In this document: piece by piece, positions 4,391 through 20,339 of the stretch
How the letters are laid out: the number at the start of each line of letters is the position of its first letter
Numbering within the stretch: position 1 is the first letter of the stretch
Origin: a virus
Reading direction: 5' to 3' (one strand)
Length of the DNA stretch: 64,000 bases
Virus record (IMG/VR): IMGVR_UViG_3300040786_000066
The notes under the pieces: model-generated
What the model was told of the DNA's origin: nothing
Seen by the model: the letters and a program-made list of their open reading frames with translations, nothing else
Database searches by the model: none
Program-made: the position numbers and the translations under genes

Positions 4391-4628
4391 ACGTCTATGT
4401 ATTGCAATAACTAACCGACTGTACTCTGCAATAGCTGACCTGACCGCAATGGCTACGGACAATATTGAGACTCTACTACCCCAAGGGCAGCTTCGTCCTG
4501 ACAAAGAAAAGGGCAGCTTCGTCTTGTCCAAATATTTCTTTGTCGCTCCCGCGTGTGGGATTGATACAACGGCTTCCCTGAGGATGTTTGTTGTCACTTA
4601 TAACACGAAATATAAAACCTATATTACA

Positions 4629-5230
4629 ATGTCAAAATCAAGCACGATTAGTTTAGATGTATTAAATGCATTAAGCCCACAAAAGGAATGTTGAACGCTT
4701 CAGTTAAGGAGCTAGAGAACCAAGTATTCACTTTTCATTCTATAGTTGCACCTGCTGAGAAACTGCGGATCTTACTGCTGTCAGCGATGACAACTCGTAT
4801 GTGAAAGCTCGTTATATCAATTCAAAAACAAAGAAGAGTTTCTTGATCCCAATCAGAGGATTATTGAATCTTGGAATTGTTCAGATGGGTACAACTAAAG
4901 TGAAAGCATTAGACCCTAAAGCAGAAGTTGCAAAGTGAATGATTATTTACTTGAGAAATCAACTGATGGTAAGGAGTGAGTCTTCCAATGTCTTTCTATG
5001 TAGTTTCTGTCAAAGATAGAATCCAAGAAAGCACTGGGAACATTATGTACCCTCCGTACTGCTACCAAGCGTTCTCTGATGAGATTGAGACGCTTAGAGC
5101 GACAGATCCTAAAGCGGATTTGGGTCCTATCTACCAAAATTATGACTTTATGCAGTCATTATATGCTGGAGAAAGATCTGCTCGCTACGCCACTGCGGAA
5201 GCAACTAAAGACATAGTTATCTCAGTTTAA
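4629..5230 (+). CDS. hypothetical protein (indel-split), paralog of 3721-4265
   Basis: MSKSSTISLDVLN... through YPPYCY to the stop at 5230; followed by a terminator at 5260-5300. Confidence 0.55.
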
Positions 5231-5708
5231 TCCCAAAGGATTTAATAATGATACTATTTACTCTCATACCAGACCATGTGTCCGGTGTGGGAGTTCTTTT
5301 GTCCTTTTCAACAATACACCACTAAAAGCACCTGACATTGCACCATTCATCCATAGGTTTATATAACATTACCGTCTTTTCAACAACAAACTACCCATTT
5401 CCTCTTAACAAACTGGATTTATACTCGATATCGAGTGTATTTATCTCCGATTTGTAATAAATAACAGGAAATAAGTGTATTTTGGTTCGTTGATAACAGG
5501 CAAAAGCGATGAGTACAAAAAATTGAATAATAACGTTAAGTATAAAAGGAGATCCTCGATTACTGAAGAAAGTAAGTAAGTCGAATGGGTTAACCCGAGT
5601 AAGAACACAACGATAAAAATATAGTTAATCAGTCCACAGCCTTCCAGGAACAAACACACTTGTTTTCCATAATTATAAGAGTCATTAATCACGTCAGACA
5701 AGACCGCG

Positions 5709-6093
5709 AAGCTTGTTTGACTGGGTTAGTTACTAAAGTACCAATCCCTGGTCGGCGAAGGGAACTGAGGTTAGAAAAACTGCGAAGCAGCAGGCTGAAT
5801 GCAATGTGATGAAGTACAGTAATCATGTTAGTAAGTCTCTCCCGAGTAGATTGAGTATAACGATTTACAATATTAGCCCCGGATATAGGTTGATTACCTT
5901 ACCCTGTATCAGATAGACACGTTTCATCGTCGGGCAATAACAAAAGTCCAGAGTGCACATAGGTATATGAAAATTAAGAACCTACCTGCATTAGATTTAT
6001 TAGAGAATCGTCTGGCAACAATAAGTCCTGAGTGGATTGCATGATACGTCATACAACCTCGAGCTCTTCATAAGTGGAGAGCTTTACAGGCTT
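5709..6093 (+). ncRNA. candidate large (~385 nt) structured RNA, unassigned
   Basis: No credible ORF. Closing helix AAGCTTGT(5709-16)/ACAGGCTT(6086-93). Internal stems GATATAGG/CCTGTATC, AGCTCTTCA/TGGAGAGCT and CTGC-GAA-GCAG. Confidence 0.5.
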
Positions 6094-6104
6094 ATAGAAA
6101 AGTC

Positions 6105-6226
6105 CGGAATTAATCTTGACGCTGATAGTATGTGCACATATAATTTCAGTTGAGGTACGAGAGATAATCATAAATTAAGTTGTACAGCTTGATTCAATGA
6201 AAGGGTTCGATTCCCGAATTTCCGCA
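6105..6226 (+). ncRNA. tRNA-like RNA (acceptor plus T-loop, non-canonical core)
   Basis: CGGAATT pairs with AATTTCCG (one bulge); GGG-TTCGATT-CCC T-arm; no canonical anticodon arm. Confidence 0.4.
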
Positions 6227-6593
6227 TAATATGGAGAACTTCAGAAGAGCTATCCAAGTTTAATAAACCATTTAATAACCAAACCATTATGAAAAGATTT
6301 TGTTTTATTCGTATTGGCTTTCAGTCTGTTTTCCTTTATGGGAGCTAGAGACTATGTGAAGCCTGTTTCAAGTCATGAAGCTGTATTTGTAGGAAGTACT
6401 AACTTTCCCTAAAGATCTACAACGGTACAATCAAAAGCCGAAGTTCCATAAGGAAAGACAAAAGAATTAGAATACTGCAGGCCTCCTTTATAGTTTGGAA
6501 CGAGCCTGAAGTTAGAATTAACATTGTGTATAATATCGTTGCAAGCACAGACTTAAAATCTGGATACTGACAACTATACTATATATAAAATAA

Positions 6594-6652
6594 AAAATAC
6601 CCTTGAGAGGCGAGTGCCGTTTAGGACTCAAGGGTATTTTATTAACATGGGG
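6594..6652 (+). terminator. long hairpin/terminator upstream of the tmRNA locus
   Basis: AAAATACCCTTGAG/CTCAAGGGTATTTT 14-bp inverted repeat. Confidence 0.6.
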
Positions 6653-6708
6653 AGGCAACTAAGCTTTCTAATATTACGAAGCCGTGTAATAATATGCATT
6701 ATAAAAGC

Positions 6709-6791
6709 GGGTAAGTACTCTAGAAAAGGCGTTATTGTTTGTCGCGGTATACAGTCGGCATACAAGATGGGTTCGATTCCCTACCTATCCA
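6709..6791 (+). ncRNA. tRNA-like RNA with Ala-type acceptor (G3:U70, A73)
   Basis: GGGTAAG/CCTATCC acceptor (one mismatch), TTCGATT T-loop, and a long hairpin instead of an anticodon arm. Confidence 0.45.
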
Positions 6792-6792
6792 C

Positions 6793-7062
6793 AAGATTGT
6801 TCATTGACGTATTATGAGTTTTGCAAGACGGGAGTTCGACTCTCCCAACTCCACAAATCGAAGACCGTGTATGTTGTCGATGGTGTAGCTAGCCGATATA
6901 CAAATAGCCGAACTTATGGGGTTGCCTGGTTTTGATTGCAATACACAAGTTTTACTGAGAATAGTCCCAACTATAACTCCAAAAGTTATACAACTTTTAG
7001 TGCAGCTGATTTAGAATTAGCAGCCTAGACGAAACTTGGGGAGCGTCAATCCCCTTATTTTT
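6793..7062 (+). ncRNA. ssrA: circularly permuted (two-piece) tmRNA
   Basis: Acceptor piece first (GACGGGAG-TTCGACT-CTCCC-AACTCC-A, 6827-6853), then a spacer, then the 5' piece GGGGTTGCCTGGTTTTGA at 6918 (G3:U70). P2 TTGCAA/TTGCAA. Tag frame ends ...FSAADLELAA-TAG (7028). Inter-piece pairing TTGACG(6804-09)/CGTCAA(7044-49). Confidence 0.88.
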
Positions 7063-7425: not shown

Positions 7426-7459
7426 CATATTTGTAAATTAATTGAGATCTTTGAATTGA

Positions 7460-8770
7460 AATAACGGCTTGAGCGAAACGTGGGCCGTGGTTCAAAGAAT
7501 ATACAACACTAGTCCTGGAATTCCTGGCAAGCCTATGAAGATAGGAACTTGGTAGAGGATAGAGGCACGTAATCCTTCATATTGCATCGGTACAAATAAA
7601 CAAAACCGAGCCGCACAACACCGTGATTCTTTTAGATAACGGAATATGATTGACTACAACCGGAGCACGGATTCAAACTAACTGTACTGTGTCGAACAGG
7701 ATGAAATCGATTGATGCTAGCCGTAAGGCAACTAACATCTTGTTGCATTTAAAAGGGACAAGAAATGATAGGGATTCTGCAGGATCCAGCTATTGAATAA
7801 GGGTAAGAATAATATCCCCTTAGAACCTCGCTGACACCAGCCAAGTCAGGAGAACAAATCGGGTGGCATCCCTCTAAGCATAAGGAGAACAACAATGCGC
7901 ATTAGCATAAGGTGTACAACAATGCAAGTACTGTCGGCCAGCCATGTCAGCTTGGACCCAAAGTTGGAGTTGATAACTTTGCCGGCAAGTACTTTAACCA
8001 TGCTGAAAAGCAATTGCAAGGAGACTATTAGGTACGTCTTCCCAGAGTAACGTGTGCCAACACCCTGGGTATCTTAGGTCAAGGATGCAATACTTTTCAT
8101 AAAGTCTATAATCTGCGATAACAGAATGAATACATCAACCGCGCAACAAGGCGAGTTTAGTTTTTAGTATGTGAGCGGTAGACACAACTACACACAACAA
8201 ACAAAGATTGCTACTTAAGCTAGTTTATGAACAGCGACTCTGACTCGGGCATCTAATGTACCGGCTAACCTTACAGAGAAAAGGTGTAATCCCTTGCCAG
8301 TATGATTTTAGGCAAATGCAAACTTCGTCAATGTTCCTTAGCGTTCGGGTATTAAGTATAAGATAGCATAAGCCTAAAAGTTGTTGGCATTAGGGCATCA
8401 AGGGATTGATGTGATGAGCTGTAACGGAACTCAGCAGGCAGGTTCGATTCCTGTTAGCCTCACTATTTTAACAACATCCAACGCTCAAAGGAATTAAGAG
8501 GGCAGGCGTTATAGTGACCCGCCGAGAATGAATGGTCACTGAATTTCTAAGTAGTAATGGTCATCTTAAGATACCTGAGTAGAGTGAGTAGTAAGAGTGG
8601 TGCCTATATGGTATTTCTGAAATGAACGTAGTAGCTCAAAAGGCAGATGGACTCAATAGAGAAGATTATTATTGAATTTGCGTGTTCGTTCAGTCCAGTT
8701 TGCATAGCAGGATCGCGCACGTTAAAACTAAGGTAGGAGCAGTCATCAAGTATGGTGATTGTCTCCCTTT
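7460..8770 (+). ncRNA. giant structured RNA, GOLLD-like, with an embedded tRNA-like element (~8393-8462)
   Basis: About 1.3 kb with no ORF of 60 aa or more on either strand. Many helices, e.g. AAGTACTGTCGGC/GCCGGCAAGTACTT, AAAGTT/AACTTT, CCCAG/CTGGG, AGTGACC/GGTCACT, TGGACT/AGTCCA. Ends in a terminator-like hairpin. The class assignment is from recall only. Confidence 0.55.
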
Positions 8771-8798
8771 TGTATACTAAGAACTAACAACAACTAAC

Positions 8799-19284: not shown

Positions 19285-19710
19285 CCATGTCAGGCCATTT
19301 ATCAACAGAAGAGCTTTATTTAAAGCCGAAATAGATGCAATAAGAAGAAAGGATTATGCTTTTCATAGAGTTTTAGAGGCAAACAAAATAAAGTTCAAAA
19401 GAACAGGGGAACCATTGTGCTAGACGGTATGGTGGTATACGAAGATCTTCAAGTTTCTTTCGGCAGTCCCAAGACGTATCAATACAATCTTGAGACACTA
19501 AAAGAAAAGTAAGCTCAAATACAGTATTAAGTATAAAAGCTAAGTTTATAGGTGCAAACAGCCTAGGTTACATAACAGGTTTGAATTACATCTTAAATGT
19601 ACTTCCATCTAGTGGTATAACTATATGCAGAAAAGATGGATCAGGTAAATGCGTTTACCAATCCCTAACAGCTTTTCTTGTAAACTGGGATAGCATAGAA
19701 AAATAACAAG

Positions 19711-19806
19711 CGGGAAACCACAAGATCAAGCTAGCCTATAAACGGGGATGCGTGGGAGGATGATAAATAAACACTGTCTGATAAGGGTTCGAATCCCTTT
19801 TCCCGT
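19711..19806 (+). ncRNA. degenerate tRNA-like RNA
   Basis: CGGGAAA/TTTCCCG acceptor and AAGGG-TTCGAAT-CCCTT T-arm; no canonical D or anticodon arm. Confidence 0.5.
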
Positions 19807-20339
19807 TATTTTAACAACTAAATATATGGCACAAGAAAAGAACGTTGCCTGCATTTGTCCTAGTATTATGATCTACAACGAGTGGGTCAGAGAAAACGCA
19901 GTAAAGGAGAGCAATATATCTGGGTCTATAATGAAGACAAAATCAGAGGACTACGCTTCCATAGACTAGTTAAGTTATTTAAATATTGGACAATAAAAGA
20001 TATAGATAGAATATTGAGGTTTATTATAATAGACCCTCAAGATGTCGAGATTCAATAGTAATCTCATATAATTTAATAAGAACAATATGAAAGCGTATCA
20101 AATAAACATCGCCCCTAGAACTGGAGTCGGTATGGGATTTGTGACTGTTGGAGAAAACGAGAACCACGCTCTTGCAGAGTTCTCAAAGTCTCTTAGGGAT
20201 TCCATCAAGATAATCAACGCCAAAATAGCGTGCGGACCTGAATGTAATATATCAATACACGAAAGCCAAAAGAGCGCAATGTAGAGATCCTTAGAACACT
20301 TAGAAAACCAGGTAGGCTTGCTTTCCAAAAAACGACTTC

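What the first reader, a model, noticed from the sequence alone, without database searches (positions are those of the whole stretch)
5709..6093. Unassigned ~385-nt multi-domain RNA closed by a terminal helix
The ends pair (AAGCTTGT/ACAGGCTT) around several strong stems (5882-89/5903-10, 6062-70/6075-83, CTGC-GAA-GCAG). It abuts a tRNA-like element at 6105 that could define its 3' end by processing. It does not fit RNase P or group I intron cores by eye.
Basis: partly seen in the sequence, partly recalled or inferred. Interest (0 to 1): 0.6.

Follow-up and report, generated by a model that had tools for sequence, protein, structure and literature searches.

The report
Modular phage RNA with repeated junctions
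An ice-dwelling phage carries a real, uncatalogued folded RNA of about 420 bases built like beads on a string, ending in three similar branched units of about 75 bases; the end-to-end helix proposed earlier is an artefact, and the RNA's job is unknown.

Summary
The RNA is real; the proposed architecture is not. The terminal helix (5709-16/6086-93) has probability 0.90 when folding starts at 5709 and 0.00 when 30 more upstream bases are included. Its 5' strand belongs to a hairpin at 5680-5734, and its 3' strand closes a local module. An independent strain (about 95% identical) has 19 substitutions in 5680-6100: none breaks a model pair and 3 are compensatory (0.05 expected; P about 2e-5 on a structure predicted from the window alone). 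Layout: 5' hairpin; variable middle domain (105-nt insertion in relatives); three tandem three-way-junction modules A, B, C closed by G-[U/C]-CCNG/CNGG-C; then a tRNA-like element (6105-6226). A and B are duplicates; C is a looser relative. It sits in a tRNA-mimic/permuted-tmRNA island of a phage of about 167 kb, probably infecting Bacteroidota. No Rfam hit; RNase P, group I and HDV-like tests failed; modules were found only in close relatives. Best guess (0.4): a stable RNA, cut off by RNase P at the tRNA-like element, presenting repeated protein-binding sites. No expression data. The scan noted this RNA before in a near-identical genome.

The parts
5535..5605 (+). Upstream conserved non-coding element E1 (core GAAGAAAGTAAGTA); could be part of a longer transcript or a DNA signal
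   Evidence: Recognisable at the syntenic position of a distant relative, L214 (75% over 57 nt, BLAST E 1.3 so weak on its own; upstream protein about 44% identical)
5661..5673 (+). Putative promoter motif (T-run then CATAAT, -10-like), about 7 nt before the predicted RNA start
   Evidence: Identical in L220; 87% over 32 nt in relative L186 (E 0.009), where a similar hairpin follows. Function inferred.
5680..5734 (+). 5' hairpin H1 (3+7+10 bp; loop ACCGCGAAG); sequesters the 5' strand of the proposed terminal helix
   Evidence: Pair probability 0.93-1.0; z -3.8; compensatory A5680-U5734 to G-C and U-A to U-G at 5728 in L220
5735..5870 (+). Middle domain, fold unresolved (candidate hairpins 5746-62, 5780-90, 5847-69); site of a 105-nt insertion between 5863 and 5864 in relatives
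   Evidence: Insertion seen in L220 and in contigs of runs X1 (minor strain) and X3; the L220 insert folds on itself, closed by a 9-bp helix
5876..5935 (+). Module A: three-way junction (P1 5878-81/5931-34, P2 5882-89/5903-10, P3 5912-15/5925-28; junction strands 0 nt, A, GU)
   Evidence: A covariance model built from module B alone finds it as best non-training hit (21-23 bits; E 0.016-0.05 in 717 kb); A vs B alignment P 0.001; A.C to G-C in P3 in L220. P1 and P3 are thermodynamically weak (0.16, 0.13).
5944..6016 (+). Module B: three-way junction closed by G-[U]-CCAG/CUGG-C (P2a 5952-57/5987-92, P2b 5960-64/5980-84, P3 5994-97/6006-09)
   Evidence: Helix probabilities 0.88-0.98 with span limited to 110 nt (outer G-C pair 0.55); compensatory U5964-A5980 to A-U in L220
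6021..6095 (+). Module C: three-way junction closed by a 9-bp helix with bulged U (AUAAG-[U]-CCUG/CAGG-CUUAU), like RNase P P4 in sequence; UACG-capped arm and a 9-bp hairpin
   Evidence: Closing helix probability 0.98; z -3.4; compensatory A6070-U6075 to U-A with loop UAAG to UACG in L220; a more distant X1 contig aligns over 71 nt ending at 6093 and then loses similarity
6105..6226 (+). tRNA-like element D: 7-bp acceptor-like helix with one U.U, T-loop on a 3-bp GC stem, no anticodon loop, no encoded CCA; candidate RNase P signal
   Evidence: Sequence, fold; not called by ARAGORN or Rfam; its inner hairpin covaries in L220
6594..6640 (+). 14-bp inverted repeat with U/A tracts, likely terminator of the primary transcript
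   Evidence: I19, 100% complementary; arms identical in L220, changes only in the loop

Best explanation
A phage-encoded, non-coding, modular RNA. Shown: the + strand folds into a 5' hairpin, a variable middle domain and three tandem three-way-junction units separated by short A-rich linkers, and these folds are kept by compensatory change. Inferred: it is transcribed from about 5680 (or further upstream) through the tRNA-like element D; host RNase P cuts at the 5' side of D (about 6105) and releases a stable RNA of about 420 nt (525 nt in strains with the insertion). Inferred, least certain: the repeated units (same closing helix with a bulged pyrimidine; identical junction strands in A and B) are repeated binding sites for one protein, so the RNA acts as a multivalent decoy or scaffold during infection, not as a catalyst or a message.
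For: Covariation: 19 substitutions, 0 broken pairs (null mean 4.4, P 0.002), 3 compensatory (null 0.05); on an MFE structure from the window alone P(comp>=3)=2e-5. The third pair of P1 differs among modules (C-G, A-U, U-A) yet always pairs. Junction strands and closing helices are invariant between strains while loops and linkers change. A is a duplicate of B. A 105-nt domain can be gained or lost between modules. Context: an ORF-poor island with a permuted tmRNA (49 bits, above cut-off in L220) and tRNA-like elements. A distant relative, L214, has a different tandem pair of ~125-nt three-way-junction units at the same locus. Precedent for unexplained stable RNAs in phage tRNA regions: T4 RNAC/RNAD (PMC9697503), GOLLD and ROOL (10.1101/2024.12.08.627333).
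Against: No expression, processing or binding data. Covariation rests on one independent strain. C is not detectably homologous to A or B by alignment (P 0.2-0.8) or by model, and the module descriptor was derived from these three. Module A's closing helix is weak (0.16). D has a poor T-stem and no CCA, so RNase P cleavage is uncertain, and a more distant relative keeps C but not a recognisable D. No partner protein was identified. The modules are absent from more distant relatives.
Confidence: 0.4

Rival explanations
1. The modules are released as separate small RNAs (about 55, 60, 73 and 75 nt) by cleavage in the A-rich linkers, so the stretch is an RNA operon and not one RNA.
For: Every module folds locally; linkers are A-rich and tolerate change; one relative keeps module C without similar flanks; a weak EndoU-family hit lies among the ORFs scanned (E 2e-4, not located).
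Against: No internal promoters, terminators or tRNA-like signals between modules. No data on ends.
Confidence: 0.25
2. An RNA-only assembly of the GOLLD/ROOL kind: the modules dock with each other or between molecules through loops and junctions to form a compact or oligomeric particle.
For: Location beside tRNA-like genes as for GOLLD and ROOL (10.1101/2024.12.08.627333); possible loop-loop pairing of H1 (ACCG) with 5750-5755; in L220, GGAC in module A could pair with GUCC of module B.
Against: No Rfam GOLLD/ROOL hit at E<=10; no covariation for any long-range pair; shorter, AU-rich and lineage-restricted.
Confidence: 0.15
3. A Y-RNA-like decoy or partner for Ro60/Rsr, with several copies of the Ro-binding word and a tRNA-like domain.
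For: One exact GNCGAAN0-1G motif (PMC4201824) at 5754, kept in L220; near matches at 5705 and 5781; modules B and C start with GUCC-N-GA, close to vertebrate GGUCCGA; L214 units start with CGCGAAG.
Against: The motif occurs 25 times on the + strand of the window; no YrlA hit; element D has tRNA order, not the YrlA arrangement; no TROVE domain among the roughly 65 ORFs scanned, although about 100 kb of the genome was not visible and the window is frameshifted.
Confidence: 0.08
4. One reading: one 385-nt RNA whose ends pair (5709-16 with 6086-93).
For: The 8 bp are complementary and invariant in L220; probability 0.90 if the RNA starts exactly at 5709. It could form if the RNA were cut inside the H1 loop.
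Against: Probability 0.00 with 30 more upstream bases; compensatory change supports the competing hairpin H1; 27% chance level; no promoter or processing signal at 5709.
Confidence: 0.05
5. Single-stranded DNA hairpin signals (origin, or hairpin promoters for a virion RNA polymerase) rather than RNA.
For: Two copies of GCGAAGC (5706, 5782), a stable DNA mini-hairpin (own knowledge); a conserved AT-rich non-coding stretch lies upstream in all relatives.
Against: Changes move between G-C and G-U and create a UNCG loop, as in RNA; neighbours are RNA genes on the same strand; 5680-6100 folds better on + than on - (-111.8 vs -98.9), though modules A-C alone do not (-58.2 vs -62.8).
Confidence: 0.05

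Closest known systems
Phage T4 RNAC/RNAD (stable RNAs of the tRNA region; PMC9697503 calls them RNAs of unknown function)
   Same: Phage non-coding RNA of unknown role in a tRNA-type cluster; release by tRNA-processing enzymes is the assumed route (own knowledge).
   Different: Three to four times longer, with tandem three-way-junction modules; no similarity to T4-like phages beyond chance (E 8).
GOLLD and ROOL RNAs (10.1101/2024.12.08.627333)
   Same: Large multi-domain phage RNA next to tRNA genes, function unknown.
   Different: No Rfam match; shorter; local beads-on-a-string fold with no supported long-range helix; very narrow distribution.
Bacterial RNase P RNA, helix P4
   Same: Module C's closing helix has the P4 signature AAG-[U]-CC / GGCUUA with the bulged U.
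   Different: Here it closes a 60-nt three-way junction and is repeated; none of CR-I to CR-V found; no Rfam hit.
YrlA / Y RNAs (Chen et al. 2014, PMC4201824)
   Same: A tRNA-like domain without anticodon function nearby; one GNCGAAN0-1G motif.
   Different: No YrlA hit, no Ro60 gene seen, motif not at the 5' end and at chance frequency.
Repeat-type decoy RNAs: CsrB/RsmZ; type III antitoxins ToxI/AbiQ and phage pseudo-ToxI (own knowledge)
   Same: Tandem structured units that could bind one protein several times; A-rich linkers.
   Different: Units are 60-75-nt three-way junctions, not GGA hairpins or 34-57-nt near-identical pseudoknots; no toxin gene adjacent; no Rfam hit.

Membership tests
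RNase P RNA (bacterial) | P4 helix with bulged U | tested here: met
   6023-6030/6087-6093 has the P4-like sequence, probability 0.98, but as a local helix
RNase P RNA (bacterial) | Conserved regions CR-I to CR-V in order; P4 as pseudoknot spanning about 300 nt | tested here: not met
   No CR pattern in 5600-6240; no Rfam hit at E<=10
Group I intron | P, Q, R, S elements with P3/P7 core, in an interrupted host gene | tested here: not met
   Patterns absent; no Rfam hit; AAGUCC occurs three times, the first two paired locally and the third not conserved in L220
HDV-like / theta ribozyme | Nested double pseudoknot P1, P1.1, P2, P3, P4 with catalytic C | tested here: not met
   A loose descriptor finds nothing in either strain
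HDV-like or other small ribozyme | Self-cleavage in vitro | not testable with these tools
   Needs an in vitro transcription assay
GOLLD / ROOL / HEARO / RAGATH and other Rfam phage motifs | Covariance-model match | tested here: not met
   No hit at gathering score or E<=10 in the window or in error-free L220
YrlA / Y RNA | GNCGAAN0-1G motif near the 5' end | tested here: inconclusive
   One exact copy at 5754, about 75 nt from the predicted start; chance-level word
YrlA / Y RNA | Ro60/TROVE gene nearby | tested here: inconclusive
   None among ORFs scanned; genome only partly visible and frameshifted
YrlA / Y RNA | YrlA covariance-model match | tested here: not met
Type III antitoxin repeat array | Near-identical 34-57-nt pseudoknot repeats directly upstream of a toxin RNase gene | tested here: not met
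   Units 60-75 nt, diverged, three-way junctions; the next ORF is a 41-aa hydrophobic peptide with no Pfam hit
tRNA (element D) | Cloverleaf with anticodon loop, D loop and 5-bp T stem | tested here: not met
   ARAGORN and Rfam negative, also on error-free copies; only acceptor-like helix and T loop kept
Protein-coding gene | Open frame with a start, conserved across strains | tested here: not met
   Longest stop-free run 81 codons (17% by chance), first ATG 34 codons before the stop; the L220 insertion adds stops; codes 4 and 15 do not rescue it

The most novel reading that the evidence does not exclude
The RNA is a new class of phage decoy: it is released by tRNA-like punctuation and carries a variable array of three-way-junction units (gained, lost and replaced among relatives), each binding and neutralising one host RNA-binding or defence protein in Bacteroidota.
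Probability: 0.2. Interest if true: 0.75.

Novelty: new variant of a known kind. Interest (0 to 1): 0.47.

Why it matters
It adds an uncatalogued, covariation-supported RNA fold to the short list of phage RNAs in tRNA/tmRNA islands whose purpose is a long-standing blank (T4 RNAC/D, GOLLD, ROOL). Tandem duplicated units with an invariant junction give a small (75-nt) testable motif for pull-downs and structure work. If they are decoys for a host protein, they would be RNA-based counter-defence or host takeover in Bacteroidota phages. Limits: one narrow phage lineage, no cultured phage or host, no expression data.

Tried and rejected
Rfam at gathering and E<=10 on the window, L220 and L174: only the permuted tmRNA. 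BLASTN against GenBank phages: nothing beyond chance; the upstream protein has no match there. Phages reached through the 425-aa gene or the tmRNA tag lack the modules. Models of B and C find nothing in L186, L203, L213, L214; these models come from two near-identical sequences and have low reach. No RNA holder was listed among sequencing runs, which says nothing about expression. A 15-nt likeness between the L220 insertion and the second long RNA (8331-8345) is not significant. The helix 5710-16/5790-96 and helix Y (5827-33/5871-77) have near-zero predicted probability and were not adopted, although one G-U to G-C change fits Y. The fourth AAGTCC (6100) is not conserved in L220 and is not counted as a module start. 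The Bacteroidota-type promoter near 5451-5484 has a 23-nt spacer (19-21 is usual, own knowledge) and is left as uncertain. The shuffle control of the count of structure pairs is uninformative with two sequences. Most protein 'homologues' of nearby ORFs were raw long reads of the same phage. ESM Atlas gave no hit for the upstream protein.

Full report
Source and data quality. The window is part of a phage genome: a primase whose best GenBank matches are crAss-like gut phages at about 33-40% identity, DNA polymerase A, RecT and thymidylate synthase. It is found in ice and sediment metagenomes; a polished assembly is 167 kb (L174). A Bacteroidota host is inferred from the primase relatives and is not shown. 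The window is a long-read sequence with many homopolymer deletions; within the finding only two A's are missing and no helix is affected. The finding lies in an ORF-poor island: a conserved 216-aa gene and its terminator, the RNA studied here, a tRNA-like element (6105-6226), a 41-aa ORF, a terminator (6594-6640), a second tRNA-like element, and a permuted tmRNA (6796-7028; 47.7-49.1 bits on error-free copies).

Checking the observation. The listed stems exist, and Rfam has no family for the region even at E<=10. The terminal helix does not survive. It has probability 0.90 when the fold starts at 5709, 0.53 from 5700 and 0.00 from 5680 or 5490. The 3' strand of the supposed terminal helix has its own local partner at 6021-6030 (probability 0.98). 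Helices of 8 bp or more between the ends of arbitrary 385-nt stretches occur in 27% of cases.

What is there instead. AAGTCC recurs at 5944, 6023 and 6100. Folding shows three adjacent three-way junctions: A (5876-5935), B (5944-6016) and C (6021-6095), each closed by G, a bulged pyrimidine and CCNG/CNGG-C. A descriptor for that closure finds exactly these three places on both strands of the 64-kb window; it was derived from them, so this shows specificity only. The variable pair of P1 is C-G, A-U and U-A in the three units. A and B share the junction (0 nt, A, GU) and a P3 that starts GAU/AUC. A covariance model made from B alone picks out A as the best other hit in 717 kb (E 0.016-0.05; E 6e-4 in 8 kb), and direct alignment gives P 0.001. 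C shares only the closing helix and the next few bases; homology to A and B is not shown.

Evidence from relatives. L220, from an independent JGI sample, is about 95% identical. In 5680-6100 it has 19 substitutions and a 105-nt insertion after 5863. None of the 19 breaks a model pair (4.4 expected), three pairs change on both sides (H1 base A-U to G-C; module B U-A to A-U; module C A-U to U-A with the loop becoming UACG; 0.05 expected), two keep pairing through G-U, and two turn mismatches into pairs. With a structure predicted from the window alone the three compensatory changes remain (P 2e-5; 2 pairs broken against 5.8 expected). This is one comparison, but it supports H1 and so contradicts the terminal helix. 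An insertion of 105 nt at the same place also appears in contigs of runs X1 and X3, and a more distant X1 contig aligns over the 71 nt ending at 6093, i.e. module C, before similarity is lost. Among distant phages with the same upstream gene, L186 keeps the motif before H1 and a comparable hairpin, and L214 keeps element E1 and has two tandem units of about 125 nt of a different three-way-junction design. So the locus looks like a variable RNA cassette. Modules A-C were not found outside close relatives, with searches of limited reach.

Coding is excluded: the longest stop-free run is at chance level and the insertion adds stops.

How it most likely works. Shown: a conserved, modular fold on the + strand of non-coding DNA. 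Inferred: transcription from about 5680, 7 nt after a conserved CATAAT motif (a longer leader from about 5490 is possible); 3' end made by RNase P at element D, which keeps an acceptor-like helix and a canonical T loop but has a 3-bp T stem, no anticodon loop and no CCA, so cleavage is uncertain. Most speculative: duplicated units with invariant junctions and free loops are what repeated protein-binding sites look like, so I favour a multivalent decoy or scaffold (0.4) over separate small RNAs (0.25), an RNA-only assembly (0.15), a Ro60 ligand (0.08), the terminal-helix model (0.05) or DNA signals (0.05).

Comparison with known families. It works most like the unexplained stable RNAs of phage tRNA regions (T4 RNAC/RNAD, PMC9697503; GOLLD and ROOL, 10.1101/2024.12.08.627333) but is a member of none. 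Module C's helix copies the RNase P P4 signature, yet no conserved region of RNase P is present; group I and HDV-like descriptors are negative. The YrlA word GNCGAAN0-1G (PMC4201824) occurs once, at chance frequency, and no TROVE gene was seen in the part of the genome available. Seven literature searches found no description of this motif; the library searched is incomplete.

Verdict. A real, uncatalogued, modular phage RNA with a wrong initial closure and boundary. New variant of a known kind; interest 0.47, held down by narrow distribution, a single informative strain and no expression or partner data.

Noticed in passing
window 6796-7028: Permuted two-piece tmRNA; the tag frame broken in the window is intact in the polished copy (ends ...LELAA-stop). 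Six related permuted tmRNAs with the same tag start in IMG/VR phages (L179-L184).
   Followed up: partly
window 6650-6793, 8386-8459, ~19710-19810, ~31873, ~32331, ~36159: Several elements keep an acceptor stem and T arm but have non-canonical interiors; no canonical tRNA is called in the window or in L174, whereas relatives L203 and L213 have ordinary tRNA clusters near the same gene.
   Followed up: partly
window 4560-5230 (L174 7423-8073): Frameshifted copy of a 216-aa gene of an unnamed family (about 30 full-length relatives, no Pfam or Atlas hit); in all seven loci examined it is followed by a terminator hairpin and a similar AT-rich non-coding stretch with TTTTCAAC words.
   Followed up: partly
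L214 5550-5800: Two tandem ~125-nt three-way-junction RNA units, each starting CGCGAAG, in a related phage; no Rfam hit.
   Followed up: partly
L186 3400-5191: About 1.8 kb without called genes and with many hairpins downstream of the same gene; shares GGCAGATGGACTCAATA with window 8643-8659 (a shorter match also in L214); no Rfam hit.
   Followed up: no
L203 14190-14900: tmRNA-like sequence apparently interrupted by a group I intron (P7-type elements visible by eye); not called by Rfam at gathering score.
   Followed up: no
window 6290-6410: 41-aa ORF with a hydrophobic, signal-peptide-like N terminus, conserved in L220 and in a more distant X1 contig, sitting between element D and the terminator; no Pfam hit.
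   Followed up: partly
window 14000-62200 or L174 (one of the 48 ORFs of alignment A13): Weak EndoU/XendoU ribonuclease hit (E 2e-4); also sigma-70 region 2 and RNA polymerase alpha-CTD-like hits. The EndoU ORF was not located.
   Followed up: partly
window 7430-8780: Second long ORF-poor structured stretch with a tRNA-like element near its end.
   Followed up: no
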